This document shows, one piece after another, positions 26,820-40,752 of a stretch of 64,000 bases of DNA. Below the pieces are notes generated by a model. It did not search any database, was not told where the DNA came from, and saw nothing but the letters and a program-made list of their open reading frames with translations. Origin of the DNA: Escherichia phage C6. The stretch is from sequence record MW679410.1; one strand, 5' to 3'. A program made the translations under genes and the position numbers. Within the stretch, counting starts at the first letter, position 1. Each line of letters begins with the position of its first letter.

Positions 26820-27119
26820 TTAGAAAGAACCAGAACCTTTAATTGTGTTCTGACGACCTTTATTTTCTAATTCAGAGTGGTCGATTTCATATGCTTGTGC
26901 TACGCCAAAGGCCTTTTTAACTTTAGCTAAAGAACCTTTAGATGTAACAATATTAAAAGTATTACCTTTGGTAAAATCAACCAAATCCACTTGTACACCC
27001 TGTTTACCGAGGCTTGCTACAATAGCATCAACATATTCTTGGTCTAAATTGCCTTGAACTCCAATTTGAAATGCTTTAGGAGCTTTGGCTTCTGTAATAA
27101 ATTCTTGATAAGTTTTCAT
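26820..27119 (-). CDS. Internal-protein-like protein with capsid-targeting sequence
   Basis: 99 aa; N-terminus MKTYQEFITEA matches the T4 internal-protein CTS. Confidence 0.65.
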   Translation of the reverse strand: MKTYQEFITEAKAPKAFQIGVQGNLDQEYVDAIVASLGKQGVQVDLVDFTKGNTFNIVTSKGSLAKVKKAFGVAQAYEIDHSELENKGRQNTIKGSGSF

Positions 27120-27144
27120 TGTTATTCCTTAAGTTGATAGAAGT

Positions 27145-27174
27145 ATTCTATCACGGATTTAATTAAGCGTAAAT
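27145..27174 (-). promoter_or_regulatory. Candidate early promoter
   Basis: Minus strand ATTTAC, 18-nt spacer, TAGAAT. Confidence 0.35.
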
Positions 27175-27579
27175 AGCCTTGCCATAATGTTTGTACCAGG
27201 TAGGACGCTGTGCAATTTTTTCGTCCAAACGGGCCTGAGATATAGCAATAGAAGCTTCGTGTGGAGTATAGTCACCACGGAATTCCTGAGGAATATCACT
27301 AATGTCCTGGACCGTAGTATCCTTGATATTAAAACCACGTTTTAAACATTCCGCTATAAGCTCGATTTGACGTTTACGTAAAAATTCAAGCTTATCATAA
27401 AAGAAAGTAACATGGCCGGTACCAAGGATAAAAGTAGAGCTAATTTTAAAATCACGAACACGTTTACCATTAGCAACATGCTTACGAACTGCACCGAAAA
27501 CACGTGGTAATTCGCGATATTCAGCCATTAAGTGTTGGTCGGCCAATTCAGATACTAAGGTAAGGTTAATACGAGTCAT
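27163..27579 (-). CDS. denV: Endonuclease V (pyrimidine-dimer DNA glycosylase) DenV
   Basis: Start trimmed to MTRINL (138 aa); near-identical to recalled T4 DenV. Confidence 0.95.
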
Positions 27580-27639
27580 TTTAGTGTTCTCCATGTTTGT
27601 GTGAGAACACTATATCACAGCTATTGTAAAAGTAAACTG

Positions 27640-27942
27640 TTATTTACCTTTAATTGCTTTAGCTGCTTCGGTAGCCGCTTGCTGAAGGTCATCCATAGAC
27701 ATACCAAACTTAGAAGCAAAGTTATCAATTTTCTTTTCGACAGAATTCAAAGGCTTGGCCTGTTTACCTTCATTAGCGCCCGGGAGAGCGAGAATACGCT
27801 CTTTCTCAATATAAAGGCTTACAAGTTTCTTACGGTCTTTATCTGGCAAATCATGAAATGAATGGGCCTTTTTATTTACGGCGGCTTCTAATTTACCTGC
27901 AGTTACGCGGGCTTCAGTGATAAATTCTTGATAGGTTTTCAT
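27640..27942 (-). CDS. ipII: Internal protein II
   Basis: 100 aa; CTS MKTYQEFITEA; position between denV and ipIII as in T4. Confidence 0.8.
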   Translation of the reverse strand: MKTYQEFITEARVTAGKLEAAVNKKAHSFHDLPDKDRKKLVSLYIEKERILALPGANEGKQAKPLNSVEKKIDNFASKFGMSMDDLQQAATEAAKAIKGK

Positions 27943-27983
27943 ATGTTTCCTTTAAAGGTAAATAGGTCTAAGTATTCGCTTTA

Positions 27984-28580
27984 TTAATTACCACGGGCCG
28001 CATTAGCAACGGCGTAAGCGTACTGGATATTAGCGTCTTTAAACGTACCTTTAGAGGTATCTAGTTCTGCCTTAAAGCCAGCTTTAGTCATAACATCAGC
28101 GAATTCTTTACGGAAAGCCATTGTATCAAGACCTTTCCATGTTGATTTGTGCTTGGCAAATTCAAGACCAGCGAAGTTGACAGCCTTAGCCAATTTATTA
28201 TCAATAGCCCATTTACCTGCTTTAGGTACAAATACCGGGCCTTTCTGTTTAGAGAACAGTTTTAAATTCCAGCGACGAAGGTCACCGTCGGCTTTAATAA
28301 AAGCTGCGTCCAAGTTACTAGCAACAACATCTTGGATATGGCCAAATTTAAGTCCATCAGCTTCAATATTTAGGTCGTTACGCCAGCGAAGTCCTTCCCA
28401 GGCGAAAGCTTTAAAGTCGGAAGCCTTTGTAGCTAAATACCGTTCAATAGGAGCTGTTTTAGCGTCAAAACCGTTTCCTGGGTTGTCAACGCCGTTTCCT
28501 CGGTAAGTCCACTCATCTTTATTAATGCCTTGGACCTTTCCTACAGAAGCTTCGGCGATAAATTCTTTATACGTTTTCAT
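27984..28580 (-). CDS. ipIII: Internal protein III
   Basis: 198 aa; CTS MKTYKEFIAEA; matches recalled T4 IPIII length and sequence blocks. Confidence 0.8.
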   Translation of the reverse strand: MKTYKEFIAEASVGKVQGINKDEWTYRGNGVDNPGNGFDAKTAPIERYLATKASDFKAFAWEGLRWRNDLNIEADGLKFGHIQDVVASNLDAAFIKADGDLRRWNLKLFSKQKGPVFVPKAGKWAIDNKLAKAVNFAGLEFAKHKSTWKGLDTMAFRKEFADVMTKAGFKAELDTSKGTFKDANIQYAYAVANAARGN

Positions 28581-28633
28581 ACGGGTTCCTTAAAGGTAAA
28601 TATTTTAATTGGTATGTTCAAGTAACTGTAGAT

Positions 28634-28662
28634 ATACTATCACAATTCTAGGAGATGTAAAC
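28634..28662 (-). promoter_or_regulatory. T4 early-type promoter upstream of ipIII
   Basis: Minus strand GTTTAC, 17-nt spacer, TAGTAT. Confidence 0.5.
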
Positions 28663-29061
28663 TTATTTGTAGGTTTTCATCCAATTCTTGAACAAAGCCG
28701 CGACGTCTTTCTCTTTAACGTTCAGTTTAACGTCCAACATTTTACCACCCGCTGCTCTCGTTTGGCGAATCTTAGCAGTACCGGTTTCACCATTCCACTC
28801 AACATAATACTGTCCAGTGTTCATTGCAATACCGTCACCGTAGTCTTCATTTTTAGAAGTGGTGAAGGCCAGCTTCATAGTCTTAGAGACGCGAGCCTGC
28901 ATGCCTGTCTGCAGAGCGTTACGAACTCGAATAACCTGAGGAGTGGCCTGGGTCAGGTTCTCATTCAGTTCTTCAGTGAACTCTTCAGATTCAAACATAT
29001 CCAAAAGTTCTTTAGATGCAGGAATTACATTCTCTGCGATAAATTCATTATAAGTTTTCAT
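28663..29061 (-). CDS. Additional CTS-bearing internal-protein-like protein
   Basis: 132 aa; N-terminus [11 protein letters not shown]; C-terminus ends ...NWMKTYK, a vestigial CTS start. Confidence 0.6.
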
Positions 29062-29542
29062 ATGCTTTCCAAGTACCTGTTTTAAATGTAGAAATCACGC
29101 GCTTAGCACGATTAGGAGTTTGTCTATACCAACGAGATTGGGCCAGGTTAACTGCCGCATCGTCCCAACGTTTCTGTTGGAGCATACGTAAAGAGTTAGT
29201 GAACCCGGCTACACCTGCTTCACCCATCTGGAAGACCATGTTAATTAAAGCACAACGACGAACTTCGTCCAGCACATCATAAACAGGTTTCAATTTAGGA
29301 TTACGCAGAATAGCTCTACGAGCATTTTCAACCGATCGGTTAAAGAGTTGCTCAGCTTCAGCCATAGTAATACGGCCATTACAAACCCGGCCCATAAGCT
29401 TATCAAGTTCAGCGCGAGCAACATCTTTAGATGGGTTCTTGGTAACCAACTGACCAATCCCAATAGTCCAATAACCTTCGGTGTCTTTATAAAGATTTAA
29501 ATCAAGACCTTCGTCTTGACGTAACATATCAAAAATATCCAT
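29048..29542 (-). CDS. e: Lysozyme (endolysin) gene e
   Basis: 164 aa, same as T4 lysozyme; extensive identity to recalled T4L (IFEMLR.DEGL.L.IYKDTEGY.TIGIG...[32 protein letters not shown]). Confidence 0.97.
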
Positions 29543-29572
29543 AATACCTCCTGAGTATAGGAGGTATTTATA
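29543..29572 (-). promoter_or_regulatory. Gene e hairpin sequestering the SD, with embedded late promoter TATAAATA
   Basis: 10-bp inverted repeat AATACCTCCT/AGGAGGTATT includes the SD; minus-strand TATAAATA overlaps the 5' arm; known T4 gene e arrangement. Confidence 0.7.
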
Positions 29573-30022
29573 TCAAAAGAGCGAATCTAAAACCTTAAAC
29601 ATCGACGGGCCCATGACATATTCCCATTGTGGACGTTTAATCAAAGCGAATGCATCGAATTCAGGAATCGTGCGACCGTCAGGGAATGTATGGTAAGCTG
29701 TACATTTGCAATCCTTGAACTGCTCGTGTTCCACAGGCACAGTATATAAGAACAGGTGTAGATTCTTATTGCTTGAATATTTGAACTCACCTAGGTCTTT
29801 CAGGAACGCAGGGTCGTATGCTGTGAATCCAATCTCTTCTTCGGTTTCACGCATCGCCGCTTGAATAGGCTCTTCGCCTGGTTCTACATGACCTTTAGGG
29901 ATGTCCCATTTATGACGCATATTCTCTGGATTACGAGAGCCTGTTACACGGCCCATGACCAGTTCTTTATCAACGGTCATGAATAAAATACCTGCCGATA
30001 ATTCTTTCGCTTTCTTACTCAT
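29573..30022 (-). CDS. nudE: Nudix hydrolase NudE
   Basis: Start trimmed to MSKKAKE; Nudix box GHVEPGEEPIQAAMRETEEEIGF. Confidence 0.85.
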   Translation of the reverse strand: MSKKAKELSAGILFMTVDKELVMGRVTGSRNPENMRHKWDIPKGHVEPGEEPIQAAMRETEEEIGFTAYDPAFLKDLGEFKYSSNKNLHLFLYTVPVEHEQFKDCKCTAYHTFPDGRTIPEFDAFALIKRPQWEYVMGPSMFKVLDSLF

Positions 30023-30260
30023 CGTCTCGTTCCCATGATTGTTTAAAAATATCTCGTATAATAATTTCAACACACGTTTCTGTTGACGGACTTTCACTAT
30101 CAGATATTTGGACCATATAATCAGAAATAGGTCGGAACATATCCAAGTCGCTTTCTAAATCTTCTTTGATTTTCTCTTCTGATGTTCCGGTGTCATAGGA
30201 ATACAGATAAGAATCACATGACTCGGATTTAATATAAATTGCAATACTCATTTGCGGCAT
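30015..30260 (-). CDS. Hypothetical acidic protein (doubtful start)
   Basis: 81 aa; overlaps nudE start region. Confidence 0.3.
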   Translation of the reverse strand: MPQMSIAIYIKSESCDSYLYSYDTGTSEEKIKEDLESDLDMFRPISDYMVQISDSESPSTETCVEIIIRDIFKQSWERDDE

Positions 30261-30835
30261 TCCTCAATAAAGGAGTTCAATGTATTTTTCTTGGTGTTAT
30301 CATCATATACCTTTTTAACTTTAGAAATACGAAAAGGTACTTCGATAACCGAGGTCCATAAAAATGATGCAATAAGACCCGAGATAGCTGCAGACATCGC
30401 TGAAGCAAATACACAAATAGGCAGGTCATTATCTGTTGTCAGGAAAAACCAAAGGAGTGGAAAAAATAATATTCCCATCCAAACATAGAACCTAGAACTC
30501 ACTAATTTGTCATATTCGTCACTCCATGCACGAAAGCCGTATTTTTTGCTATAACAAATCAATGGGTCAGGTGTCTGTTCTTTGAGCGGTTCTGGTTGCC
30601 AACCGTTTACAATATAGCCCATTTTATATTCCTCAATTAAAAGCCGTTTCATTTCAGCAGTACAACCTGACCAATCTATCGTACTAGCTGGAATTCCTTC
30701 ATCACCATCATCAATATTTCGCCAGGACTTTTTAATAATCATATGCTCACCACTTGGGATAATAATTCCGGCATTTTCCGACCGACGGATGAAGTTTGTA
30801 TCAATGCCCATACACCCGGGTTCATAAAGGGCCAT
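30248..30835 (-). CDS. Membrane protein
   Basis: 195 aa; hydrophobic helices in C-terminal half. Confidence 0.5.
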   Translation of the reverse strand: MALYEPGCMGIDTNFIRRSENAGIIIPSGEHMIIKKSWRNIDDGDEGIPASTIDWSGCTAEMKRLLIEEYKMGYIVNGWQPEPLKEQTPDPLICYSKKYGFRAWSDEYDKLVSSRFYVWMGILFFPLLWFFLTTDNDLPICVFASAMSAAISGLIASFLWTSVIEVPFRISKVKKVYDDNTKKNTLNSFIEECRK

Positions 30836-31524
30836 TACCAGCCCTCCATAGGGAATTCCAGATATACTTGAGCATTAACACGGATTTCATTAGTAATCTT
30901 TTTAACACGGTCGGTATTACGAGACACACGACCAAACCAGCGCCAACCGTTACTTACTGCACGAGAACCCGTATGCCATGTCTGCCAATCAAACTGGAGC
31001 AACGTGCGGTCAGGAGCATCCCACTTGGTTAATTCATTAGACTCAATTTTTTCCAGAACTTCTTTATGCCACTGACGATAGATAAGTTCGCCTTCAGGAA
31101 TCTGGCTAAATTGCGCAGTTCCGGTTGCAAAATGGGTAGGACACACATCAGCGTTAACAAGACCAAGAATATGTTCAGAATGGTAACGAGGATTATCATA
31201 ATCAGGCTGCCCTGCGGTAATAAAGTGTTGACCGACCGGAATATCCGGGCGTGGTACATCATCATGGTGGAAGCCTGGAATTGCAGGGTACCAGCCGGGC
31301 ATTAACATGTGTACACGGGAATCAAATACAATATCAGGGCCACATTGCCAATCTTCAGGCAGGTTTTCAATAAAGCTACGAGTAATAGGACCGCCGTGTT
31401 TATGAGCAAAATAAGCATCGCAATTAAAGAACATAGGCTCATTTTTAATCATATCATTACTGATATCTTGAGCAAAATTACCTACTATAGAAGCTTTAGA
31501 ATTAAAAGTTTTTGGGCCATTCAT
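30835..31524 (-). CDS. Hypothetical protein
   Basis: 229 aa; His/Asp-rich motifs; no confident family assignment. Confidence 0.5.
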   Translation of the reverse strand: MNGPKTFNSKASIVGNFAQDISNDMIKNEPMFFNCDAYFAHKHGGPITRSFIENLPEDWQCGPDIVFDSRVHMLMPGWYPAIPGFHHDDVPRPDIPVGQHFITAGQPDYDNPRYHSEHILGLVNADVCPTHFATGTAQFSQIPEGELIYRQWHKEVLEKIESNELTKWDAPDRTLLQFDWQTWHTGSRAVSNGWRWFGRVSRNTDRVKKITNEIRVNAQVYLEFPMEGW

Positions 31525-31538
31525 AATATTTTCCTCAC

Positions 31539-31751
31539 TTACTTTTTGTTGAAAAAGTACATTTTACCTTTAGGGGATAAGGATACACGAAGTGCGTTAC
31601 CAATACCAACTGAACATTTAACCAGGTCAGCAGATTTCAATTCACCAAATGCTTGACGAAGGTCACCGTCACGAGTGTTAACCATCAGGCATTTAGCACC
31701 AGCTGCACGAACTTCGTTTAACATGTTGATTGCTTGGTTAGAAAGTTTCAT
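31539..31751 (-). CDS. Hypothetical protein (start trimmed to MKLSNQ)
   Basis: Track start lies upstream of the promoter; internal ATG with SD GGAGAA. Confidence 0.45.
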   Translation of the reverse strand: MKLSNQAINMLNEVRAAGAKCLMVNTRDGDLRQAFGELKSADLVKCSVGIGNALRVSLSPKGKMYFFNKK

Positions 31752-31788
31752 TTTATTCTCCGTTTCACTCTGTTGTTTTGATAGGTCT

Positions 31789-31817
31789 ATAGTATCATGC
31801 CTATAGACCTTGTAAAC
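31789..31817 (-). promoter_or_regulatory. T4 early-type promoter with 10-bp dyad
   Basis: Minus strand GTTTAC, 17-nt spacer, TACTAT; AGGTCTATAG...CTATAGACCT dyad; 45-bp block identical to the one near 40790. Confidence 0.6.
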
Positions 31818-31829
31818 AATTTTATGCAA

Positions 31830-32789
31830 TTATTTTTCGAAAGGACGAATTAAATGATGATTATCTTGGAAACGCTTGATGTAGTCGTTTTCACCTAAAG
31901 TCTTGTACATATTAACCACAGCTTGGTAGTTTTCCCAGGCATACTCGCGGAACCAACCTGAAGTGATTGAGGTACACACTTTCTCAAGGGCCATATAGAA
32001 ACTTAATGATGGTGAAATATTGAAGTCATTAGGAACCTGTGAACGTTCTAGTGCCAGGACACAAGTTTCTTCATACACACCAGCCAATTTAATAGCTTCA
32101 GGCAAAGCCTCGAACTTCTCACGAGAAGTCATGACTTCAGAACCTTCCTTCATATAAAAGGTATATGCAGGGCGTCCGGCCAATGCCACAGCTTCATGGA
32201 TAGAGTCATGGTCTAGGGTATAAATGGTGTCATTAAAGAACGATGATTTGTTTACATCTAATTTAGGATGAGAATAGCTCAACGTTTCTTTTTGACGTTG
32301 CAGCATAATTTCCTGGAGTTCTTCATTCAGGGTGATACCTTTATTACGAAGGTATTTGATGTGGGACATAGTTTTCAGGAAGAACGGATTATTCTTCAGG
32401 AAACGATGAGAGGTTTTGATAGCCAGACAGATATCAGGCGTAGCCCAATAGAAACCTGTAAGACGGTCCTTTTTAATATGATTTTCAGCATATTTCAGGA
32501 GACGATAACTTGAGGTGAAATCTTCGTCTTGGAGCTCACCAGTGATTTCACGTACGTTAGTCAGAGCACGAACGATATATGCTTCAAAATAGGTTTCTTT
32601 ACCGTTGTACATGCATTTAAAAGCCTGGACATCAGGGTTATCCACAGGAACATGGGCGCCGAACATCCGAGCTTTAAAGTGATTCCATGAGCCTTGGTCG
32701 GCAATGAAATCCCAATCAGAATTTTCGATATACTTATTTTCAATCAGACCAGCGTGGTGCAGTGCACGAGAACCAATAACTAGCATCAT
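31830..32789 (-). CDS. Hypothetical protein
   Basis: Start trimmed to MMLVIGS with SD GAGGAAA; 319 aa. Confidence 0.55.
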   Translation of the reverse strand: MMLVIGSRALHHAGLIENKYIENSDWDFIADQGSWNHFKARMFGAHVPVDNPDVQAFKCMYNGKETYFEAYIVRALTNVREITGELQDEDFTSSYRLLKYAENHIKKDRLTGFYWATPDICLAIKTSHRFLKNNPFFLKTMSHIKYLRNKGITLNEELQEIMLQRQKETLSYSHPKLDVNKSSFFNDTIYTLDHDSIHEAVALAGRPAYTFYMKEGSEVMTSREKFEALPEAIKLAGVYEETCVLALERSQVPNDFNISPSLSFYMALEKVCTSITSGWFREYAWENYQAVVNMYKTLGENDYIKRFQDNHHLIRPFEK

Positions 32790-32808
32790 AATATTTTCCT
32801 CAGTAAAC

Positions 32809-33421: not shown

Positions 33422-33451
33422 AAATCCTCCTACCACATCCATGTGGTTAAA

Positions 33452-33679
33452 TTATTTTCCTAACGAAACACGAGTAGGTTTTTTACCAAAATAGTCTTCA
33501 TAAGAACCATCTAAACGGCCTGCTTTAGACCGACAATACGAATCATACTTTTTGTAATAAGTCATCTCGGTATTATAACGTGGGTGTCTATCGGCCATAA
33601 TAATACTTAGTGGCCAACCTTTGGCATAATCGCGAAGACTGTTTATTTTACGAATGTATCGTTTTTTCAATTTTAGCAT
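33452..33679 (-). CDS. Hypothetical basic protein
   Basis: 75 aa. Confidence 0.4.
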   Translation of the reverse strand: MLKLKKRYIRKINSLRDYAKGWPLSIIMADRHPRYNTEMTYYKKYDSYCRSKAGRLDGSYEDYFGKKPTRVSLGK

Positions 33680-33897
33680 GAGCTTGGGTACCAGATTTCA
33701 CCATCGGCACGAGCAACGAAGGTACGACCAGCTTCTTCACCATAACAAGAGCTGTTCAGCCAATCTTCGAGACGAACTTCGCCGTCATAATCGTCGAGCT
33801 CAACACCAAAATCCTGAGCAGAAGCCATATCTTTTACTTTCTTATACAGTGCAGCCAGTTCAAGTGCCGCTTTTTCTAATTCATTAATAGTAGTCAT
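33673..33897 (-). CDS. C-terminal W-x-S-S-C-tail family, member A
   Basis: Start trimmed to MTTINELEK (SD AAGGTGA); ends GEIWYPSSC-stop. Confidence 0.5.
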   Translation of the reverse strand: MTTINELEKAALELAALYKKVKDMASAQDFGVELDDYDGEVRLEDWLNSSCYGEEAGRTFVARADGEIWYPSSC

Positions 33898-33907
33898 TTT
33901 TATCACC

Positions 33908-34117
33908 TTAGCAAGACATAGAGGATGTAAACCAGAAACCTTCACCTTCTGGAATACCGTAATCATCACGGACCCATTCGTAATCATCATATTCCGGACT
34001 AGAAGCTGGAATATATTCTTCGCCACCAGCGTGGAAGTGCTGACCTGTTTCGTCAGCCACGGACTGGCCTTTACGTACTAATTCGCGGATTTGTTTTTCA
34101 ATTTCATCAATAGTCAT
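33908..34117 (-). CDS. C-terminal W-x-S-S-C-tail family, member B
   Basis: Start trimmed to MTIDEIEK (SD AAGGAAA); ends GFWFTSSMSC-stop. Confidence 0.5.
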   Translation of the reverse strand: MTIDEIEKQIRELVRKGQSVADETGQHFHAGGEEYIPASSPEYDDYEWVRDDYGIPEGEGFWFTSSMSC

Positions 34118-34127
34118 TTTTATTTCC

Positions 34128-34325
34128 TTAGCATTCGTAAGAGGAGGACACCCAAGAGGTACCACTAATAGTAATACAACCGTTATAAAGCGTGATATGT
34201 CGTTCTAGGTCACGAACACCATCGATATAGATATCAGCTTCTTCGCGTTCTTCTTTACAAATCTGGATAACGTTTTCAATAGCTGCCGCGGCAGTACGGA
34301 TTGCACAATCTAGTTCACGAGACAT
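34128..34325 (-). CDS. C-terminal W-x-S-S-C-tail family, member C
   Basis: 65 aa; SD AAGGAA; ends TSWVSSSYEC-stop. Confidence 0.5.
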   Translation of the reverse strand: MSRELDCAIRTAAAAIENVIQICKEEREEADIYIDGVRDLERHITLYNGCITISGTSWVSSSYEC

Positions 34326-34334
34326 AATAATTCC

Positions 34335-34616
34335 TTAACATTCAGAAGAAGAGGATACCCATCCACCATTTTCTAGGCTGGTAGTGTAATCATGTTGGTT
34401 TACAATAGCGTACTGAGCTTCACCGTATTCTTCCCAGTGGGCAAGGTCGGCTTTCAGGGCGCCAGGAGAATAATAGTCACCGCCCATACCGCGAGCAGGG
34501 TATATATTAAAATGAGTCTCATATTTGTTAGCAATTTCCTCAGCACGACGAATAGCTTTATGGATATCATTTACTGCTTCAGCCAGTTCTTTATTTTTAC
34601 GGTAATCATTCATCAT
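34335..34616 (-). CDS. C-terminal W-x-S-S-C-tail family, member D
   Basis: 93 aa; SD AAGGAAA; ends GGWVSSSSEC-stop. Confidence 0.55.
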   Translation of the reverse strand: MMNDYRKNKELAEAVNDIHKAIRRAEEIANKYETHFNIYPARGMGGDYYSPGALKADLAHWEEYGEAQYAIVNQHDYTTSLENGGWVSSSSEC

Positions 34617-34625
34617 AGCGTTTCC

Positions 34626-34916
34626 TTAGCACATTGCTGAAGAGGAGACCCAAGCACCAACTGTAACGACGCCGTTTTCAACTTCACCGCCGTTGTTTTC
34701 AATTTCATCTTTAAACCACTGGGAGCATTCATAACCGACAGGATAATATGTACGGCCTGAACCATAATCACCGGTACCGAATTGGATACCATACTTATCG
34801 GCAATAGCTTCACATTCATGTTCGATGGTATTCACTTTACGCAACAGGTCATAGATGGCTTTTTCTGCAGATTTTTCGTCGTTGTGTTCTGGGATTTCAA
34901 TTTCAATTTTATTCAT
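34626..34916 (-). CDS. C-terminal W-x-S-S-C-tail family, member E
   Basis: 96 aa; SD AGGAA; ends GAWVSSSAMC-stop. Confidence 0.55.
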   Translation of the reverse strand: MNKIEIEIPEHNDEKSAEKAIYDLLRKVNTIEHECEAIADKYGIQFGTGDYGSGRTYYPVGYECSQWFKDEIENNGGEVENGVVTVGAWVSSSAMC

Positions 34917-35266
34917 GATTTACATTCCTTAATAAAGATTTCAAGGTCATTACGTTTAGTTTGATTTACATACTCATTATAATTAGCCATCTCTAAAGCA
35001 TATCTCTTACGGATGGGAGCATTCAAAGCGTTTGTATGGCAAATATCATACACAACAGGGATAAAATAAGCCACGACAGCAGGAGCGATTATCATATAGA
35101 AACCCATCTCAATAGGCATGACTCCTTCGATTGCCGCCATAACCGTGGTCATTACCAGACCAACCAGACCTCCTAGCATACCGGTGACAATTCCCATAAA
35201 TAAGGAAATAGCAATATCATATTCAGCCAATTGATAAACATGTGATGAAAGACTAGGCCGTTCCAT
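34913..35266 (-). CDS. Small membrane protein (start trimmed to MERPS)
   Basis: 117 aa; two hydrophobic helices; stop overlaps ATG of family member E. Confidence 0.45.
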   Translation of the reverse strand: MERPSLSSHVYQLAEYDIAISLFMGIVTGMLGGLVGLVMTTVMAAIEGVMPIEMGFYMIIAPAVVAYFIPVVYDICHTNALNAPIRKRYALEMANYNEYVNQTKRNDLEIFIKECKS

Positions 35267-35795: not shown

Positions 35796-35843
35796 AATAT
35801 TCTCCTCTCCTCCAAATAGGGAGACCGAAGTCTCCCGGTAACA

Positions 35844-36437
35844 TTACTTAAGTGAATTAATGTAGTCGTCGATATCAGCAGAAGTCGTATCCATTCCAAC
35901 TTGTGGGCCTTTAAATGTTTCTACACGCAGCAGGGTATCTTCAATATCAATCTTAGTCAATGCAGCGATTTCAACAACATCATCGGCAGTAGCAATACCA
36001 AGGGCAGCCATATTACGAGTTTCACGGATGTACTCGAGCTTAACGGCTAGTTCCTGACGAGAGTCATCAAGTTCCTTGACCTTCAGTTTAATTTCATTAC
36101 GCATTTCGATATAATCATCGGCTTTCTTACGAAGCTGAGTAGCTGTACGACGATAAAGGAGACCGAGTTTAGCATGTACCTGGACATCAGCGCCTTCGGC
36201 AATCAGTTTACGAATTTCACGTTCTTTAGAAGCAGCGAGCTGGTCTTTTTCATTAGCCAACGCACGAATACGTTTTTCTTCATTCACAGACTTAACATGA
36301 GCAGTCTGGAGTTCAGTGATTTTATCAATCAGGGTAGAAGCAGCTTTAGTATACTGGTCTTCGATTGACAGGTTCTGAGTCATTGCGGTGCCCAGTTTAG
36401 AACGAATGAATTCAACGAGTTTCTTTAAAGTGTTCAT
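35844..36437 (-). CDS. Coiled-coil protein (PspA-like character, tentative)
   Basis: 197 aa; heptad-rich helical sequence; SD AAGGAAA. Confidence 0.5.
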
Positions 36438-36479
36438 AGTATTTCCTTCAGTTGATTAAGATTTATAATCCATGAGGAC

Positions 36480-36509
36480 ATTATACCCTGTCCTCTGAGG
36501 GTTGTAAAC
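36480..36509 (-). promoter_or_regulatory. T4 early-type promoter
   Basis: Minus strand GTTTAC, 18-nt spacer, TATAAT; GAGGACA...TGTCCTC dyad around the -10. Confidence 0.55.
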
Positions 36510-36512
36510 ATT

Positions 36513-36785
36513 TTATTTCATTTTTGCTAGGCAGATTTCATTGGCTTCCCATTGAGCTTGCTTAATAATAGCTTTGGATACAGGAGCCCTTTGGCCATAA
36601 GTTTTTGACGTTGAGAGAACAATACATTTGTTTGCTTCATTATGCCAGCCCCATGATTTTTCGCCATGGGTACCTTTAACTACAGCTGACACCTCAACAG
36701 AGCAACCACCATCAGAAATCTTGGTTTCGACAATCCATTCATTTCTCTCGGCTGCTTCAAGTTCTAATCTAGTTTTTTTCTTCAT
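36513..36785 (-). CDS. Hypothetical protein
   Basis: 90 aa. Confidence 0.5.
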   Translation of the reverse strand: MKKKTRLELEAAERNEWIVETKISDGGCSVEVSAVVKGTHGEKSWGWHNEANKCIVLSTSKTYGQRAPVSKAIIKQAQWEANEICLAKMK

Positions 36786-36969
36786 ACATGGCAGCCCAAT
36801 CAGTTTTTGCCAAGTTGAAAGTAAGAGCTTTCTCTAATTCTTTGGCAGCTTTTTGTTGTTCAGGTGTTAATGAATTATACAACTCTTGCATTTCTTTATC
36901 TTCGATATTCATTATGTTCTCCTCAAATTACGGGCTCATAATATCTTAATCATGAGCCCATGTAAACTT

Positions 36970-37233
36970 TTATTTCATATTATTGAAATAATCTTCCGCA
37001 TCAAAATCGTTATCATGATAAACTTTGGTAGACGATTTGGCGTAACCTTCAGCTGAGAACATATTAATCACAACTTTAATTGTATACCACTGTCCATCTT
37101 CATTACCCATTACTGCATAGGTTTCATACACTGGGTGTTCAGGACCGATAACCTTAATATCGTTAACTGTGGCACCAAATTCTTCCGGAACGCATTTCAT
37201 AAAGAAATTAAACAATTCACCATAATTATCCAT
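36970..37233 (-). CDS. Hypothetical protein (start trimmed to MDNYGELF)
   Basis: Track start is GTG; internal ATG with SD AAGGAGA. Confidence 0.5.
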   Translation of the reverse strand: MDNYGELFNFFMKCVPEEFGATVNDIKVIGPEHPVYETYAVMGNEDGQWYTIKVVINMFSAEGYAKSSTKVYHDNDFDAEDYFNNMK

Positions 37234-37268
37234 TTTACTCTCCTTCACTCTGTTGTTTTGATAGGTCT

Positions 37269-37297
37269 ATAGTATCATGTTTAAAGTAGGTGTAAAC
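37269..37297 (-). promoter_or_regulatory. T4 early-type promoter
   Basis: Minus strand GTTTAC, 17-nt spacer, TGATACTAT. Confidence 0.6.
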
Positions 37298-37356
37298 AAC
37301 TTTGTGAAATTATTTTTAGTCTAAACCCCCAAAAAGGAGACCGAAGTCTCCTTTCA

Positions 37357-37974
37357 TTATTTACGGGTCTTTTCGAACTGAGCGGCGTCACCAGCAAGGC
37401 GGCGTGCTTGACGAAGTTTGTTGTCGATTTCTTCGTGCATAGGCTGGGTATACTTAAGGCCTTCAACCGTCAGATAGAGACGATAAAGGTCTGGGGTATC
37501 CAGGTTGTTAATGTGCTGTCCGTTACGAAGAGCATTGAACTCTCGAACGAGTTGTTTAGTTTCAGATTCGATTTCCGAAACCAAAGAAGCCAGTTGATTA
37601 TATTTTTTAACTATAGTGCTGGTGTCAAACTTGATTTTAGGTTTAGGAGCTTCTTTTACCGGTTCGGCTTTAGGCGTTGGTTTCGGCGCTGCAACTTTGG
37701 TCTGGGCCACAGGTTTAGCAACAGGAGCTTTAGCTGGTTTAGCAGGCTTAGTAGCGCCGCCAGCTACGATATCTTTAAAAGCTTTGGAAGCTTTGTAATA
37801 TTCTTTCTGGTTACTAGTATCAAAACCATACATATCATAAACGTTTTTAAAGAACTCAGTACTAGTTTTAGCCCCAGAAATTTTATCATAAGCGGCTTGC
37901 CACATATCTTTAGTCATGCGCACGCCGGCTTCAGTCAGAATGTTTTCGTTCAAAAATTCATTGTAAGTTTTCAT
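37357..37974 (-). CDS. CTS-bearing internal-protein-like protein with Pro/Ala/Lys-rich linker
   Basis: 205 aa; N-terminus MKTYNEFLNEN; low-complexity KPAKPAKAPVAKPVAQTKVAAPKPTPKAEPVKEAPKPK segment. Confidence 0.6.
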   Translation of the reverse strand: MKTYNEFLNENILTEAGVRMTKDMWQAAYDKISGAKTSTEFFKNVYDMYGFDTSNQKEYYKASKAFKDIVAGGATKPAKPAKAPVAKPVAQTKVAAPKPTPKAEPVKEAPKPKIKFDTSTIVKKYNQLASLVSEIESETKQLVREFNALRNGQHINNLDTPDLYRLYLTVEGLKYTQPMHEEIDNKLRQARRLAGDAAQFEKTRK

Positions 37975-38007
37975 TATTGTTTCCTGTGTTAATTAACTTA
38001 TCTATTT

Positions 38008-38040
38008 ATACAAAAAAGGCCCAACCTTTCGGAAGGGCCT
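38008..38040 (-). terminator. Rho-independent terminator ending the tRNA transcript
   Basis: Minus strand AAAGGCCC-loop-GGGCCTTTTTTG. Confidence 0.55.
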
Positions 38041-38217
38041 TTAACCTAGGGTAACCTTGTCGGGGTTCCACCTGCTAGGCAAGTGTTCAAAAATAAGGTG
38101 CGCCGTTTCAGCTGTGAGATAAGGGACTTTAAGAGGAACTCATGTACGCCTTAAAGTCGGGTCTTATTCAGGGAACTTCAGTCCGACGACTTACCGGTAG
38201 CGACCCGGTTTCTTGTT
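38041..38217 (-). ncRNA. Candidate structured small RNA downstream of tRNA-Arg
   Basis: About 175 nt without a protein ORF; several stem-loops (e.g. GACTTTAAG...CTTAAAGTC); no tRNA cloverleaf found. Confidence 0.25.
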
Positions 38218-38293
38218 TGGCCGAGACAGTAGGGATCGAACCTACGACCCAGGACTTAGAAGGTCCTTGCTCTTCCTTCTGAGCTATGCCTCG
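38218..38293 (-). tRNA. tRNA-Arg (anticodon UCU)
   Basis: Manual cloverleaf: 7-bp acceptor, GGTTCGATCC T-arm, anticodon loop CTTCTAA, encoded CCA. Confidence 0.75.
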
Positions 38294-38297
38294 TATT

Positions 38298-38372
38298 TGG
38301 CGGACATGCATGGATTCGAACCATGGACCAATTGATTAACAGTCAACTGCTCTGCCACTGAGCTACACATCC
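38298..38372 (-). tRNA. tRNA-Asn (anticodon GUU), putative
   Basis: Manual cloverleaf: T-loop TTCGAAT, anticodon loop CTGTTAA, encoded CCA; acceptor has two G-U pairs. Confidence 0.55.
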
Positions 38373-38376
38373 AAAT

Positions 38377-38450
38377 TGGTGGCCCTGGGTGGAATCGAAC
38401 CACCATCCAGCGATTATGAGTCGCTCGCTTGACCGTCCAGCTACAGGGCC
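38377..38450 (-). tRNA. tRNA-Ile/Met (anticodon CAU)
   Basis: Manual cloverleaf: perfect 7-bp acceptor, T-loop TTCGATT, anticodon loop CTCATAA, encoded CCA; T4 tRNA-Ile also uses CAU. Confidence 0.75.
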
Positions 38451-38455
38451 TTAAT

Positions 38456-38728
38456 TTAAATTACAAATCCAGCAGGAGCATTATCATCTTTAGCCATGTG
38501 CTGAATTGTATGATAAGTCATTTCTTCAGGAGCAACCAGATAAGCCGCAGCGTTAACTAGTGGAATTATTTTTGGTTTAGCGAATGTGCTATCGGCAATT
38601 GTCATAAAGGGCTCGCCGTCGGTCTCAACTTCGCCAAATTGACATTCATATGAAATAGAACAACGTTTGGTAGTTGTTGTCTTGGTTTCCGGGTCATAAA
38701 AAGCTAATTTTAATACTAACATAAACAC
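38456..38728 (-). CDS. Hypothetical protein
   Basis: 90 aa. Confidence 0.45.
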   Translation of the reverse strand: MFMLVLKLAFYDPETKTTTTKRCSISYECQFGEVETDGEPFMTIADSTFAKPKIIPLVNAAAYLVAPEEMTYHTIQHMAKDDNAPAGFVI

Positions 38729-38852
38729 CTCAAATAAAAATTAAGTAAAGTAAGTTTGATTAATAGACCTTGTCTATTATGAAAGGTTCTTTGAGGGAAG
38801 AACCTTTGGTAATAGAGGGTATTAATGATAGAGTAATAATATCACATAATTC

Positions 38853-39338
38853 TTAAAGCATATCAAGTGCTTTAACACTAGGTATTTGGATTTCTTCTTC
38901 AACGATGTACAGCTTAACATAAGAAATTACGCGCATGAAATCGCCGTCATATTCACAAGCCATACCAAGGAGCTCAGTAAGGGCTTCATTCAAGTAGTAT
39001 GCTTCTTCATCGTCATTCAACAAGGCTTCTAAGTCTTGAATACCTAGGACCTTATCCAAAAATTCAGGAGTCAACTGACCGGATTTTACACCAGATTCAA
39101 TGTGAGCAATAACCAAATGCTTAACTACGTCCCAGTCTTCGTTACCACATTTATTGTGGTTGTTGCAATGCGAACCATGGAAAAGTTCTAAGATGTATTT
39201 GTACTGTTGGATTTCCTGTTCTTCTACACCAAATACAGTCTGGGTTTTATAGTTATCACCATCATTTTCCCAAGTTTCGATTTCAAGAACATAACCTTTA
39301 GGAATAACTTGTCCAAATTTAATATTCATTGTGGCCAC
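38853..39338 (-). CDS. Hypothetical acidic protein
   Basis: 161 aa ATG ORF. Confidence 0.55.
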   Translation of the reverse strand: MATMNIKFGQVIPKGYVLEIETWENDGDNYKTQTVFGVEEQEIQQYKYILELFHGSHCNNHNKCGNEDWDVVKHLVIAHIESGVKSGQLTPEFLDKVLGIQDLEALLNDDEEAYYLNEALTELLGMACEYDGDFMRVISYVKLYIVEEEIQIPSVKALDML

Positions 39339-39616
39339 ATATTAATGTAATCAAGTTTAATAGAAGCAATCTTCAAAGGATTTTTAAATATGTCATATTC
39401 GACCAATCCGTTTTCAGTTGCGGTATAAAAAGTAAAGTTAACAGAATTATAACGATGGCTGTTAACTTTGAGTTTAACATCACTTGAACTACGGCCAATA
39501 TTAACCTGTTGAACATCAAGCACAGCATCTTTGCCGTAATTTCGAATCAACAACTCGGCTGCAACCTGATCGGATTTATAGCCATTCTCTGGATTAGTAA
39601 CCTTAACGTATAGCAT
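39326..39616 (-). CDS. Hypothetical protein
   Basis: 96 aa. Confidence 0.5.
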   Translation of the reverse strand: MLYVKVTNPENGYKSDQVAAELLIRNYGKDAVLDVQQVNIGRSSSDVKLKVNSHRYNSVNFTFYTATENGLVEYDIFKNPLKIASIKLDYINMWPQ

Positions 39617-39997
39617 TTAACCCTCGTCTACAATTGTGTGGGTATTGGCATTAACAATTTGCCACCAGTCAAAACGATTAGACCCATATTGAGGCTTATT
39701 CTCGTTTTCTTTAATGATATCACGTAGTTCATCTTCAGTAGCAGCTTTTGCGATTAAGTCGGCATAGCCGCCACGAGGATAATAGTTATCACCTGCGAAA
39801 AGTAAAAAGTTTGTTTTGATATTATTGAACTCTTCAAGAGTAATAACCGTTCCGTTTGGTTGAACAATATCTATATAACTATATCCTAATTTCTGAGCTT
39901 CGGAAACCGCTTCAAGCAGGGTATCATGGGCCCATCCAATTTGACAATCGGGTTTTTCGGATGGATTAGCTTGGTAGTCCGCATACACTTTATACAT
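39617..39997 (-). CDS. Hypothetical protein (start trimmed to MYKVYADY)
   Basis: Track ORF 39617..40045; internal Met avoids overlap with upstream gene. Confidence 0.45.
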   Translation of the reverse strand: MYKVYADYQANPSEKPDCQIGWAHDTLLEAVSEAQKLGYSYIDIVQPNGTVITLEEFNNIKTNFLLFAGDNYYPRGGYADLIAKAATEDELRDIIKENENKPQYGSNRFDWWQIVNANTHTIVDEG

Positions 39998-39998
39998 T

Positions 39999-40184
39999 TT
40001 ACTCACCTTTAGAGATTTTATCCATAACAAAAGAGATTGAACCAATTAAAAATGCCACTACTAAAGAGATTATATTCTCGGAAGTTGAAAGCATATCGAG
40101 CATGAATCCTGCAAACATACTAAAGCCAAAAGCAGTAACGGCGGCCAGTGCAGTAACATTTCTAATTAATTCACAACGTTTCAT
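39999..40184 (-). CDS. Small membrane protein (start trimmed to MKRCE)
   Basis: SD GGAGAA; two hydrophobic helices. Confidence 0.45.
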   Translation of the reverse strand: MKRCELIRNVTALAAVTAFGFSMFAGFMLDMLSTSENIISLVVAFLIGSISFVMDKISKGE

Positions 40185-40220
40185 TTTATTCTCCAATCAC
40201 TCATTTGTTTTGATAGGGCT

Positions 40221-40250
40221 ATAGTACCATCACTAGAGCCCGTTGTAAAC
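40221..40250 (-). promoter_or_regulatory. T4 early-type promoter with covarying dyad
   Basis: Minus strand GTTTAC, 18-nt spacer, TACTAT; dyad GGGCTCTAGT/ACTATAGCCC in the same position as the AGGTCTATAG dyads. Confidence 0.5.
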
Positions 40251-40252
40251 AA

Positions 40253-40525
40253 TTATTTTAAATAAATTGCATACTTTTTATAACCAGCCGTTTCGTGACG
40301 CAGCCCTTTTTCATTAGCAAAACGTTCAATATTGTTAATTTGATTCCGGTCAAGCTCTGAAGTATCAAAAACAAAAAAATTTCGCTTATTGCCTAAAGTT
40401 ACGTGATTAGTCAAATCAATGTTATAGAGATGATTTATATCATCAATCATAGTCTTAACAGATTTGTTAATTTTTACTTCCTCATTAAGAATAGATTCAG
40501 AGATAAATTCTTGATAAGTTTTCAT
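40253..40525 (-). CDS. CTS-bearing internal-protein-like protein (ipI-locus position)
   Basis: 90 aa; N-terminus MKTYQEFISES. Confidence 0.6.
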   Translation of the reverse strand: MKTYQEFISESILNEEVKINKSVKTMIDDINHLYNIDLTNHVTLGNKRNFFVFDTSELDRNQINNIERFANEKGLRHETAGYKKYAIYLK

Positions 40526-40526
40526 T

Positions 40527-40752
40527 TTATTCTACGCCAGCGGCTTTCAAAAGTTTTTTAAGATTGGCCGTGCCTTGAGCAGAAAATGTGACCTTGCCGT
40601 CTTTTTCGCCGATACTCCCGGTCAATTTAGCAAGTTTATCACTAGGGATTTTTTTAAAATCAGCCAATGTACCGTCAAAGGTTTTTGTAACAACTGGCAG
40701 TTGGTCTTCGTGTTTTTTTAGCTTCGGTAATAAATTCTTGATAAGTTTTCAT
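40527..40752 (-). pseudogene. Frameshifted CTS-bearing gene (A7/T7 homopolymer)
   Basis: ATG-MKTYQEFITEAKK then stop after 25 codons; removing one base of the 7-nt homopolymer near 40713-40719 restores a 74-aa ORF ending at 40527; no intact ORF in the track. Confidence 0.5.

What the first reader, a model, noticed from the sequence alone, without database searches (positions are those of the whole stretch)
26820..40752. Expanded repertoire of capsid-targeting-sequence (CTS) proteins: seven loci including one frameshifted copy
Seven minus-strand genes begin with MKTY[QKN]EF[IL]: 26820..27119, 27640..27942 (ipII), 27984..28580 (ipIII), 28663..29061, 37357..37974, 40253..40525 and the frameshifted 40527..40752. 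In T4 this N-terminal decapeptide directs internal proteins into the prohead and is removed by the prohead protease; the ipI-type locus is known to be hypervariable and to carry anti-restriction cargo. The four copies beyond ipII/ipIII are therefore candidate virion-packaged, injected effectors, possibly anti-defence proteins.
Basis: partly seen in the sequence, partly recalled or inferred. Interest (0 to 1): 0.75.

Follow-up and report, generated by a model that had tools for sequence, protein, structure and literature searches.

The report
T-even phage internal (injected) protein genes
This JS98-like T-even phage carries seven genes for small proteins tagged for loading into the phage head and injection with the DNA; five belong to already named internal-protein families and two to families never labelled as such, so this is a sound but mostly ordinary finding.

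Summary
Seven minus-strand ORFs at the stated coordinates begin with MKTY[QKN]EF[IL]xE (expected by chance 1e-5). The seventh is broken by one extra A in a homopolymer (A7 versus A6 in relatives). The window comes from a Dhakavirus (JS98/JS10/AnYang group).

Five of the seven belong to named T-even internal-protein families: IpII (93% identical to T4), IpIII (86%), Ip7, Ip9 and Ip8 (the frameshifted one). Two are annotated "hypothetical" in every record examined:
- A 132-aa protein (phrog_15461) whose cargo domain is never found without the tag.
- A 205-aa two-domain protein (phrog_2280) at a third locus, behind its own conserved terminator and late promoter.

The repertoire is larger than T4's three but normal for the genus: AnYang has eight, KIT01 seven.

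That T-even phages carry shuffled, polymorphic tag-bearing internal proteins has been known since 1994. Ip1, Ip2 and Ip3 each inhibit a distinct GmrSD type IV restriction enzyme (Silas 2025), and another tagged protein inhibits McrBC (HIDEN-SEQ preprint). None of the window's five extra cargos is homologous to a characterised inhibitor, so their targets remain unknown.

Verdict: real, correctly interpreted in kind, modest novelty.

The parts
26820..27119 (-). ip7-family internal protein gene (99 aa; CTS MKTYQEFITE|A; mature 9.5 kDa, pI 9.0), downstream of denV
   Evidence: phrog_2667 'internal head protein', E 3e-43. Mature part matches 283 phage records, including genes named ip7 in T2, RB32, VR20 and VR25.
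27640..27942 (-). ipII (100 aa; CTS MKTYQEFITE|A)
   Evidence: 93% identical to T4 IpII over 100 aa. phrog_7857. T4 Ip2 inhibits the GmrSD of ECOR21.
27984..28580 (-). ipIII (198 aa; CTS MKTYKEFIAE|A)
   Evidence: 86% identical to T4 IpIII. phrog_5341. T4 Ip3 inhibits the GmrS1/GmrSD2 system of ECOR17.
28663..29061 (-). 132-aa CTS protein not annotated as an internal protein ([13 protein letters not shown]|N; mature 13.8 kDa). Its start codon lies inside the last codons of lysozyme gene e, and its C-terminus is ...WMKTYK.
   Evidence: phrog_15461, unknown function. 49 phage records, all 'hypothetical'. CTS invariant in all homologs. Only 7 representatives in 1.8 billion proteins, all with a CTS-like start. 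Overlap with e shown. AlphaFold pLDDT 56.
29565..29572 (-). Late promoter TATAAATA upstream of e. Probable source of late transcripts through e, the 132-aa gene, ipIII and ipII.
   Evidence: T4 likewise has TATAAATA only upstream of e in this cluster.
37357..37974 (-). 205-aa CTS protein not annotated as an internal protein, at a third locus between e.8 and the tRNA genes. CTS is MKTYNEFLNE with a second candidate site ILTE|A at residues 12-16. Layout: helical N-domain, Ala/Lys/Pro-rich linker, helical C-terminal region.
   Evidence: phrog_2280, unknown function. 131 phage records in several genera, all 'hypothetical'. Alignment. AlphaFold: residues 20-72 pLDDT 80-88, 74-116 disordered. Probable homolog bas37_0244, hhalign 94.6%.
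38003..38041 (-). Stem-loop terminator (about 38041-38012) followed directly by late promoter TATAAATA (38010-38003), 36 nt upstream of the 205-aa gene
   Evidence: Conserved in all eight Dhakavirus homologs and upstream of bas37_0244.
40253..40525 (-). ip9-family internal protein gene (90 aa; CTS MKTYQEFISE|S), second gene of the ipI-type locus
   Evidence: phrog_7673 'internal head protein'. 192 records, including genes named Ip9 in RB32, VR7 and IME08. CTS-less homologs exist in siphoviruses and a Kuttervirus.
40527..40752 (-). ip8-family gene interrupted by a +1 A insertion (A7 run at 40719-40713); first gene of the ipI-type locus
   Evidence: The repaired product hits phrog_8765 'internal virion protein', E 5e-27. 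107 records, all full-length, including VR5 ip8.
40754..40838 (-). About 85-nt early-promoter plus stem-loop cassette (PeSL type) upstream of the ip8-ip9 pair
   Evidence: Repeat family D2. Same layout upstream of T4 ipI. PeSL concept.
40185..40269 (-). Second copy of the cassette, immediately downstream of ip9, so the ip8-ip9 pair is bracketed by direct repeats
37233..37317 (-). Third copy of the cassette, just downstream of the 205-aa gene (a fourth copy lies at 31753-31837)
40826..41281 (-). Context gene: 57B/Acb1 anti-CBASS nuclease homolog immediately upstream of the ipI-type locus
   Evidence: phmmer E 1.6e-58 to PDB 7T26 Acb1

Best explanation
These are the phage's internal protein (Ip) genes. 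Each product starts with a ten-residue capsid targeting sequence (CTS). By analogy with T4, the CTS makes the protein co-assemble with the scaffolding core of the prohead. The prohead protease then cuts after Glu10 in an (I/L)-x-E motif. The mature protein stays in the head with the DNA and is injected into the next host. There it acts before any phage gene is expressed, most likely by binding and blocking one specific host nuclease that attacks the phage's modified DNA. Because each inhibitor is narrow in specificity, phages collect several. The shared CTS-coding DNA and the repeated promoter/stem-loop cassettes give recombination anchors that let cargos be swapped between related phages. What is shown here: the motif, its conservation by selection on the protein, the family memberships, the gene order, the promoters and the shuffling among relatives. 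What is inferred: packaging, cleavage, injection and anti-nuclease function of Ip7, Ip8, Ip9, the 132-aa protein and the 205-aa protein.
For: - Motif: present seven times against 1e-5 expected.
- Key CTS positions kept while synonymous codons vary: Thr3 uses act/acc/acg, Tyr4 tat/tac, Ile8 att/atc, Glu10 gaa/gag. This points to selection on the peptide. These positions are the ones reported as critical for targeting and processing.
- Family membership: IpII is 93% and IpIII 86% identical to the T4 proteins. Ip7, Ip8 and Ip9 are assigned by PHROGs and by named genes in other phages.
- Mature parts are small (6.8-21.9 kDa) with calculated pI 8.0-9.7, in line with the basic T4 internal proteins described.
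- 132-aa family: CTS invariant, and the cargo domain never occurs without it, even in the most distant members.
- 205-aa family: aromatic 4, F7, [IL]8 and E10 persist down to 36% identity, and the gene has a conserved dedicated late promoter.
- Upstream signals match those of T4 ipI, ipII and ipIII.
- Function in T4-type phages: Ip1, Ip2 and Ip3 each inhibit one GmrSD variant. IPIII is needed on ECOR17 and works without its CTS when expressed in the cell. Bas37_0260, a tagged protein at the ipI locus, protects against McrBC.
- Shuffling: cargo sets differ among ten genomes, with at least 11 cargo families, and the 132-aa gene occupies different slots in JS10/JS98 and in the window.
Against: - No virion proteomics or N-terminal sequencing for any of the five extra proteins was found.
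- None of the five is homologous to a characterised inhibitor: T4 IpI gave no hit and Bas37_0260 shares only the CTS.
- Pfam, NCBIfam and PDB sequence searches and fold searches gave nothing usable. The 132-aa model is of low confidence.
- Only two of the seven genes have a canonical late promoter placed to drive them directly. Late expression of the others depends on read-through, as it apparently does in T4.
- The prohead protease and scaffold genes lie outside the window.
- Dhakaviruses are inferred to carry arabinosylated 5-hydroxycytosine rather than glucosyl-hmC, so targets may differ from those defined with T4.
Confidence: 0.78

Rival explanations
1. The 205-aa protein, and perhaps others, is not an injected anti-defence effector. 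It would be an accessory component of the prohead core, or a DNA-associated structural protein, that uses the CTS only to enter the head and is then degraded or retained.
For: - It is larger than typical Ips and has a long helical C-terminal region plus a disordered Ala/Lys/Pro-rich basic linker.
- It has several internal [LIV]-x-E motifs, ending at residues 15, 108, 134 and 145, that could be protease sites.
- It is a dedicated late gene behind a terminator.
- A similarly built tagged ORF at the same locus in Bas37 (bas37_0243) has only 1 of 48 TA sites hit by transposons, classed Essential. That is unexpected for a host-specific anti-defence gene.
- T4 IPIII itself influences head morphogenesis.
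Against: - The gene is absent from JS10, VR5 and T4, so it cannot be generally required for assembly.
- Its better-supported Bas37 homolog, bas37_0244, is non-essential.
- Similarity to the essential bas37_0243 is weak (hhalign probability 25%).
Confidence: 0.15
2. The frameshift in ip8 is a homopolymer sequencing or assembly error, and the real phage has an intact ip8. In that case there are seven functional genes and no pseudogene.
For: - The only lesion is one extra A in a run of A's (A7 versus A6 in SHP1 and IME281).
- The downstream reading frame is otherwise intact and differs from SHP1 by 1 residue.
- All 107 database homologs are full-length.
- The near relative SHP1 shows a similar isolated frameshift in a different CTS gene, so such errors, or such mutations, are common in these assemblies.
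Against: - Homopolymer runs are also natural mutation hotspots.
- ip genes are dispensable and are often lost among relatives, so a fresh inactivating mutation is equally plausible.
- No read data are available.
- Programmed recoding is unlikely. The repair needs a +1 shift (or loss of one A in the mRNA), not the common -1 shift, and relatives encode the protein in one frame.
Confidence: 0.45
3. The shared 5' ends are kept mainly as DNA or RNA elements (recombination anchors or a common translation initiation region), and some of the extra ORFs are not actually targeted to the capsid.
For: - The repeat extends into the ribosome-binding region for ipII and ipIII: 83% identity over 54 nt.
- The CTS-coding DNA plausibly mediates cassette exchange.
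- A CTS-like DNA stretch also occurs at the 3' end of the 132-aa gene.
Against: - Synonymous codon variation with a fixed amino acid at positions 3, 4, 8 and 10.
- Peptide-level conservation in distant homologs whose DNA has diverged.
- Experimental proof in T4 that the ten residues suffice for packaging.
Confidence: 0.04

Closest known systems
T4 internal proteins IpII and IpIII (inhibitors of the GmrSD type IV restriction enzymes of E. coli ECOR21 and ECOR17; Silas et al. 2025, PMC12373910)
   Same: Direct orthologs at 27942-27640 and 28580-27984: 93% and 86% identity, same CTS, same position between denV and e, same upstream promoter/stem-loop layout.
   Different: The host phage is a Dhakavirus inferred to carry a different DNA modification. 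Whether these alleles inhibit the same enzyme variants is untested.
Ip7, Ip8 and Ip9 of T-even phages (named from the polymorphic ipI region; annotated in T2, RB32, RB15, VR5, VR7, IME08)
   Same: The 99-aa, frameshifted 74-aa and 90-aa genes belong to these families by sequence. The ip8-ip9 pair sits downstream of 57B, exactly as in VR5.
   Different: ip7 lies downstream of denV here, not in the ipI locus as in T2 and RB32. ip8 is frameshifted. No function has been assigned to any of the three families in the literature I could reach.
T4 IPI* (inhibitor of GmrSD from E. coli CT596)
   Same: Same genomic slot (57B to trna.4), same packaging logic, same bracketing by early promoter/stem-loop elements.
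   Different: No sequence similarity to any window protein. T4 IpI uses a longer 19-residue leader, MKTFKEF...ITE|A. An IpI-like gene is present in the relative dhabil but not here.
Bas37_0260 (CTS-bearing McrBC inhibitor at the ipI locus of phage KarlGJung; HIDEN-SEQ preprint 10.1101/2025.11.20.689424)
   Same: A tagged protein in a two-gene ipI locus, showing that cargo can target type IV enzymes other than GmrSD.
   Different: Only the first ten residues match any window protein.
PeSL promoter/stem-loop cassettes of T4-type phages (Arbiol 2010; Comeau 2014, PMC4122927)
   Same: Four copies of an about 85-nt GTTTAC promoter plus stem-loop element, two of them bracketing the ip8-ip9 pair. The authors already linked PeSLs to shuffling of the IP locus.
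   Different: The JS98-group sequence variant was not described in the text I read. Recombination at these copies is inferred from comparison, not observed.

Membership tests
T-even CTS-bearing internal proteins (Ip) | N-terminal decapeptide of the MKTYQEFIAE type, with aromatic residue 4 and Phe 7 (targeting) | tested here: met
   All seven start MKTY[QKN]EF.
T-even CTS-bearing internal proteins (Ip) | Prohead-protease site (I/L)-x-E at residues 8-10, followed by a small residue | tested here: met
   ITE|A, IAE|A, IAE|N, LNE|N and ISE|S. The 205-aa protein also has ILTE|A at residues 12-16, conserved in its family. Actual cleavage was not tested.
T-even CTS-bearing internal proteins (Ip) | Gene located in one of the two polymorphic Ip loci (denV to e; 57B to trna.4) | tested here: inconclusive
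   Six of the seven are in or directly beside these loci. ip7 lies just beyond denV. The 205-aa gene is at a third locus, between e.8 and the tRNA genes.
T-even CTS-bearing internal proteins (Ip) | Protein present in the mature head in processed form and injected with the DNA | not testable with these tools
   Needs virion mass spectrometry. No published data were found for these families.
T-even CTS-bearing internal proteins (Ip) | Phage encodes a T4-type prohead protease (gp21) and scaffold (gp22) | not tested
   These genes lie outside the 64-kb window. The genus is a Tevenvirinae member with T4 gene order.
IpII / IpIII orthologs | Full-length sequence similarity to T4 IpII / IpIII | tested here: met
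   93% over 100 aa and 86% over 198 aa
IpII / IpIII orthologs | Inhibition of the cognate GmrSD variant | not testable with these tools
   Activity is defined only for the T4 alleles.
Ip7, Ip8, Ip9 families | Similarity of the mature part (CTS removed) to genes named ip7, ip8 and ip9 | tested here: met
   Ip7: 47.8% to T2 ip7 and 98.9% to VR20 ip7. Ip9: 77.5% to RB32 Ip9. Ip8: 85.9% to VR5 ip8.
IPI* (GmrSD-CT596 inhibitor) | Sequence similarity to T4 IpI | tested here: not met
   No hit of T4 IpI to any window CTS protein at E 1e-3
Bas37_0260-type McrBC inhibitor | Sequence similarity beyond the CTS | tested here: not met
   Only residues 1-10 align.

The most novel reading that the evidence does not exclude
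The 205-aa protein and its relatives would define a third internal-protein locus, between e.8 and the tRNA genes, in Tevenvirinae. This locus encodes larger, late-promoter-driven, two-domain tagged proteins: a helical N-domain, a basic Ala/Lys/Pro linker and a helical C-terminal region. Their role would differ from that of the small single-domain restriction inhibitors, for example protecting or escorting the incoming genome, or contributing to head filling. The loosely similar Bas37 ORF bas37_0243, which tolerates almost no transposon insertions, would then be an essential member of this class.
Probability: 0.15. Interest if true: 0.55.

Novelty: new member of a known kind. Interest (0 to 1): 0.3.

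Why it matters
Injected internal proteins act before any phage gene is expressed. They are therefore a first line of counter-defence and help set host range, which is relevant when choosing or engineering therapeutic T-even phages. For this phage the practical yield is a short, concrete list of candidates:
- Two widespread tagged families (132 aa and 205 aa) that current annotation misses.
- Three named but functionally unassigned families (Ip7, Ip8, Ip9).

Each can now be tested against the known diversity of type IV restriction enzymes, using the approaches that recently assigned targets to Ip2, Ip3 and Bas37_0260. The concept itself is established, so the finding adds members, not a principle.

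Tried and rejected
- Pfam and NCBIfam scans of all seven proteins gave only sub-threshold noise. The TonB hit is just the proline/lysine-rich linker.
- PDB sequence searches with family profiles gave nothing significant.
- AlphaFold models were only partly confident.
- Foldseek of the 205-aa model against PDB and BFVD returned no fold match apart from one uncharacterised homolog in Yersinia phage fHe-Yen9-01.
- I tested whether the McrBC inhibitor Bas37_0260 or T4 IpI is homologous to any window cargo. Neither is.
- I looked for virion proteomics covering these families and found none in the held library.
- Repoila et al. 1994 could not be opened, so the original Ip numbering is cited second-hand.
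- A literature search on Ip7 to Ip10 returned only irrelevant papers, and Petrov 2010 does not discuss internal proteins.
- A pattern search for the promoter cassette was too strict and missed the copies that the repeat finder found.
- Programmed frameshifting at ip8 was considered and set aside: it needs a +1 shift, and relatives encode the protein in one frame.


Full report
**Observation.** The ORF list and an independent six-frame scan find seven minus-strand ORFs that begin with MKTY[QKN]EF[IL], at exactly the coordinates given. No other copy exists in the 64-kb window, and a looser pattern adds none. The number expected from six-frame amino-acid composition is 1.2e-5, and 200 shuffles gave zero. 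The seventh ORF (from 40752) stops after 25 codons. The DNA reads GCT AAAAAAA CAC GAA, with an A7 run at 40719-40713. Dropping one A restores a 74-aa ORF ending at 40527. SHP1 and IME281 have A6 here, and KIT01 and VR5 have AAAAGA. The repaired protein differs from the SHP1 protein by one residue.

**What phage this is.** The 15-kb region matches JS98-like T-even phages of the genus Dhakavirus (SHP1, IME281, JS10, AnYang, JS98) at 92-96% identity. Gene order follows T4: vs.8, [ip7], denV, ipII, ipIII, [132-aa gene], e, nudE, then e.6, e.8, [205-aa gene], three tRNAs, trna.2-4, [ip9, ip8], 57B, 57A, gene 1. 57B is an Acb1 anti-CBASS nuclease homolog (E 1.6e-58 to PDB 7T26).

**Family assignment.** I searched with the mature parts only, so the shared tag could not drive the matches.

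| Window gene | Family | Evidence |
|---|---|---|
| 100 aa (27942-27640) | IpII | 93% identical to T4 IpII |
| 198 aa (28580-27984) | IpIII | 86% identical to T4 IpIII |
| 99 aa (27119-26820) | Ip7 | 283 records, including genes named ip7 in T2, RB32, VR20, VR25 |
| 90 aa (40525-40253) | Ip9 | 192 records, including Ip9 of RB32, VR7, IME08 |
| 74 aa repaired (40752-40527) | Ip8 | 107 records, all full-length, including VR5 ip8 "similar to Ip8 of RB15" |
| 132 aa (29061-28663) | phrog_15461, unknown function | 49 records, all "hypothetical protein" |
| 205 aa (37974-37357) | phrog_2280, unknown function | 131 records, all "hypothetical protein" |

PHROGs agrees: five of the families carry an internal head/virion protein label and two are of unknown function.

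**The tag.** All seven keep Tyr4, Phe7, Ile/Leu8 and Glu10. A review of Mullaney and Black's work reports that targeting depends mainly on residues 4 and 7, and processing on residues 8 and 10. Across the seven genes the codons for Thr3, Tyr4, Ile8 and Glu10 vary synonymously while the residues stay fixed. That indicates selection on the peptide rather than only on the DNA.
- 132-aa family: the tag is invariant in every homolog. An exhaustive profile search of 1.8 billion representatives found only seven proteins, all starting with a tag or a degenerate one such as MKSFDQYIME. This cargo domain is never seen untagged.
- 205-aa family: the tag drifts (MYTFNEFLAE, MLKFKEFISE, MNFKEFLNE) but retains the four key positions. 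A second site, (I/L)-(T/S)-E|A at residues 13-16, is nearly invariant.
- Mature products would be 6.8-21.9 kDa with calculated pI 8.0-9.7.

**Expression signals.** A canonical late promoter (TATAAATA) lies 36 nt upstream of the 205-aa gene, directly after a stem-loop terminator. This terminator-promoter pair is conserved in all eight Dhakavirus homologs examined and upstream of the Tequatrovirus homolog bas37_0244. A second late promoter sits upstream of e (29572-29565). The start codon of the 132-aa gene is embedded in the last codons of e (gca tATGAAAACTTATAA), so that gene is probably co-transcribed with the late lysozyme gene. The other genes are preceded by GTTTAC early-type promoters with stem-loops and have no nearby TATAAATA. 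The same is true of T4 ipI, ipII and ipIII, whose only nearby late promoters are those of e and of genes further upstream. The lack of private late promoters is therefore not evidence against them.

**Is the repertoire "expanded"?** I counted tagged ORFs in the homologous region of ten genomes.

| Phage | Tagged ORFs | Note |
|---|---|---|
| AnYang | 8 | All intact: the window's seven plus a 119-aa gene |
| Window | 7 | One frameshifted |
| KIT01 | 7 | |
| SHP1 | 6 | The 205-aa gene is frameshifted |
| IME281 | 6 | |
| JS98 | 5 | |
| JS10, MN04, VR5 | 4 each | |
| T4 | 3 | |
| dhabil | 2 | |

At least eleven cargo families occur in this small sample. The window is at the high end but is not unique.

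**Shuffling.** The 132-aa gene occupies the ipII slot in JS10 and JS98 but lies between ipIII and e in the window. The ipI-type locus holds ip8+ip9, ip8 alone, a 97-aa gene, or an IpI-like gene in different relatives. An approximately 85-nt promoter/stem-loop cassette occurs four times on the minus strand. Two copies bracket the ip8-ip9 pair exactly, and one follows the 205-aa gene. These match the PeSL cassettes proposed to mediate modular shuffling, whose authors had already linked them to the IP locus.

**What is already known.**
- Srikant et al. (2022) showed that IPIII is needed for T4 to infect ECOR17 and works without its tag when made in the cell.
- Silas et al. (2025) showed that Ip1, Ip2 and Ip3 each inhibit one distinct GmrSD type IV restriction enzyme with no cross-protection. 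[quoted passage not shown]
- The HIDEN-SEQ preprint (2025) found that Bas37_0260, a tagged protein in a two-gene ipI locus, protects against McrBC. I retrieved that phage (KarlGJung, MZ501089). Bas37_0260 shares only the tag with the window's proteins.
- Dhakaviruses are inferred to carry arabinosylated 5-hydroxycytosine rather than glucosyl-hmC, so their inhibitors may face a partly different set of enzymes.

**The two unlabelled families.**
- 205-aa protein: it has a confident small helical domain (residues 20-72, pLDDT 80-88), a disordered Ala/Lys/Pro-rich basic linker (74-116) and a moderately confident helical C-terminal region. No fold match was found.
- Bas37 has two tagged ORFs at the same e.8-tRNA locus. 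bas37_0244 is a probable homolog (hhalign 94.6%, E 7e-8) and is non-essential. bas37_0243 is only loosely similar (25%), but just 1 of its 48 TA sites was hit by transposons and it is classed Essential. The preprint does not comment on this in the text I searched.

**Mechanism, with status of each step.**
- Shown by sequence: tag presence and peptide-level conservation, cleavage-site conformity, family membership, T4-like locus and promoter architecture, and cargo shuffling between relatives.
- Established for T4 and transferred by homology: the tag binds the scaffolding core, the prohead protease removes it, and the mature protein is injected with the DNA.
- Established for T4 Ip1-3 and Bas37_0260, and inferred for the rest: each cargo blocks one host type IV restriction enzyme.
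- Unknown: the targets of Ip7, Ip8, Ip9, the 132-aa protein and the 205-aa protein.

**Rivals.**
- The 205-aa protein may be a head-core or DNA-associated component rather than an effector, given its size, helical C-terminal region, internal protease-type motifs and late-only expression. Its absence from JS10, VR5 and T4 argues against a general assembly role.
- The ip8 frameshift may be a homopolymer sequencing error rather than a pseudogene. I cannot decide without reads.
- Conservation purely at the nucleic-acid level is contradicted by the synonymous variation.

**Verdict.** Most of it is already known or already annotated in sister phages. The useful residue is two widespread tagged families that annotation misses. 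One of them sits at a third locus with its own late promoter. There is also a loose link to an unexplained essential gene in Bas37. Interest is modest.

Noticed in passing
window 40253-40525; L011 1504-1722 (phage M01); L013 1492-1716 (KS_S4); L012 1-1740 (aagejoakim): The Ip9 cargo domain has tag-less homologs outside T-even phages. Two are small genes among short hypothetical ORFs: 72 aa in a Guernseyvirinae siphovirus (50.7% identity) and 74 aa in a Seuratvirus (44.4%). The third is the C-terminal ~75 residues of a 755-aa Kuttervirus protein (32.9%). The T-even version looks like a tag plus short spacer grafted onto a widespread phage accessory domain.
   Followed up: partly
window 28663-28680 and 29030-29100: The 132-aa protein ends in ...WMKTYK, so its last codons repeat CTS-like DNA. 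Its start codon overlaps the last codons of lysozyme gene e (tATGAAAACTTATAA, compared with TATAAAAATCTATAA at the end of T4 e). Both look like footprints of recombination through CTS-like sequence. The C-terminal K[TSV][YH]K is conserved across the family.
   Followed up: partly
L015 7029-7592 (bas37_0243) and 7718-8191 (bas37_0244) in phage KarlGJung, MZ501089: Two CTS-bearing ORFs annotated as hypothetical sit at the e.8-tRNA locus of this Tequatrovirus. bas37_0243 (starts MKTYAEFLTE) has only 1 of 48 TA sites disrupted in the HIDEN-SEQ reference library and is classed Essential. That is odd for an internal protein and is not discussed in the preprint text I searched.
   Followed up: partly
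window 33673-34916, minus strand: Five tandem small ORFs whose products all end in a similar motif, W-x-(S/T)-S-S-x(0-2)-C: ...IWYPSSC, ...FWFTSSMSC, ...SWVSSSYEC, ...GWVSSSSEC, ...AWVSSSAMC. This looks like a paralogous array of unknown function inside the span of the finding.
   Followed up: no
L001 14768-15061 (JS10); L006 19631-19924 (JS98): A 97-aa CTS gene (MKTYQEFIKESTDLYS...) lies in the ipI-type locus of JS10 and JS98 but is not annotated in either record, leaving an apparent 650-nt gap between trna.4 and 57B. MN04 annotates the same gene as hypothetical.
   Followed up: partly
L005 6129-6488 (AnYang), L008 6129-6488 (KIT01), L004 15313-15522 (IME281): Further tagged genes annotated as hypothetical in relatives: a 119-aa gene (MKTYQEFITESTQR...) between ip7 and denV, and a 69-aa gene (MKTYSEFLTEAMES...) next to 57B. 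Tag variants MKAYQEF, MKSYQEF and MKTYQQF also occur, so simple MKTY searches undercount.
   Followed up: partly
window 31753-31837, 37233-37317, 40185-40269, 40754-40838: Four copies of an approximately 85-nt cassette on the minus strand: a GTTTACAA promoter-like box, the stem-loop GGTCTATAG...CTATAGACC, and then TATCAAAACAA. Identity to the reference copy is 64-82%.
   Followed up: partly
window 40826-41281: The gene immediately upstream of the ip8-ip9 pair is an Acb1 (anti-CBASS nuclease) homolog, so known and candidate counter-defence genes are adjacent here.
   Followed up: yes
L002 (Salmonella phage SHP1, KY979109): This 62.8-kb record is described as a complete genome, although it matches part of a roughly 170-kb phage type. 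Its product labels appear displaced from the genes they describe (for example, 'lysozyme' on the denV-sized gene and 'IpIII' on the vs.8-sized gene). Its 205-aa homolog is split by a frameshift.
   Followed up: no
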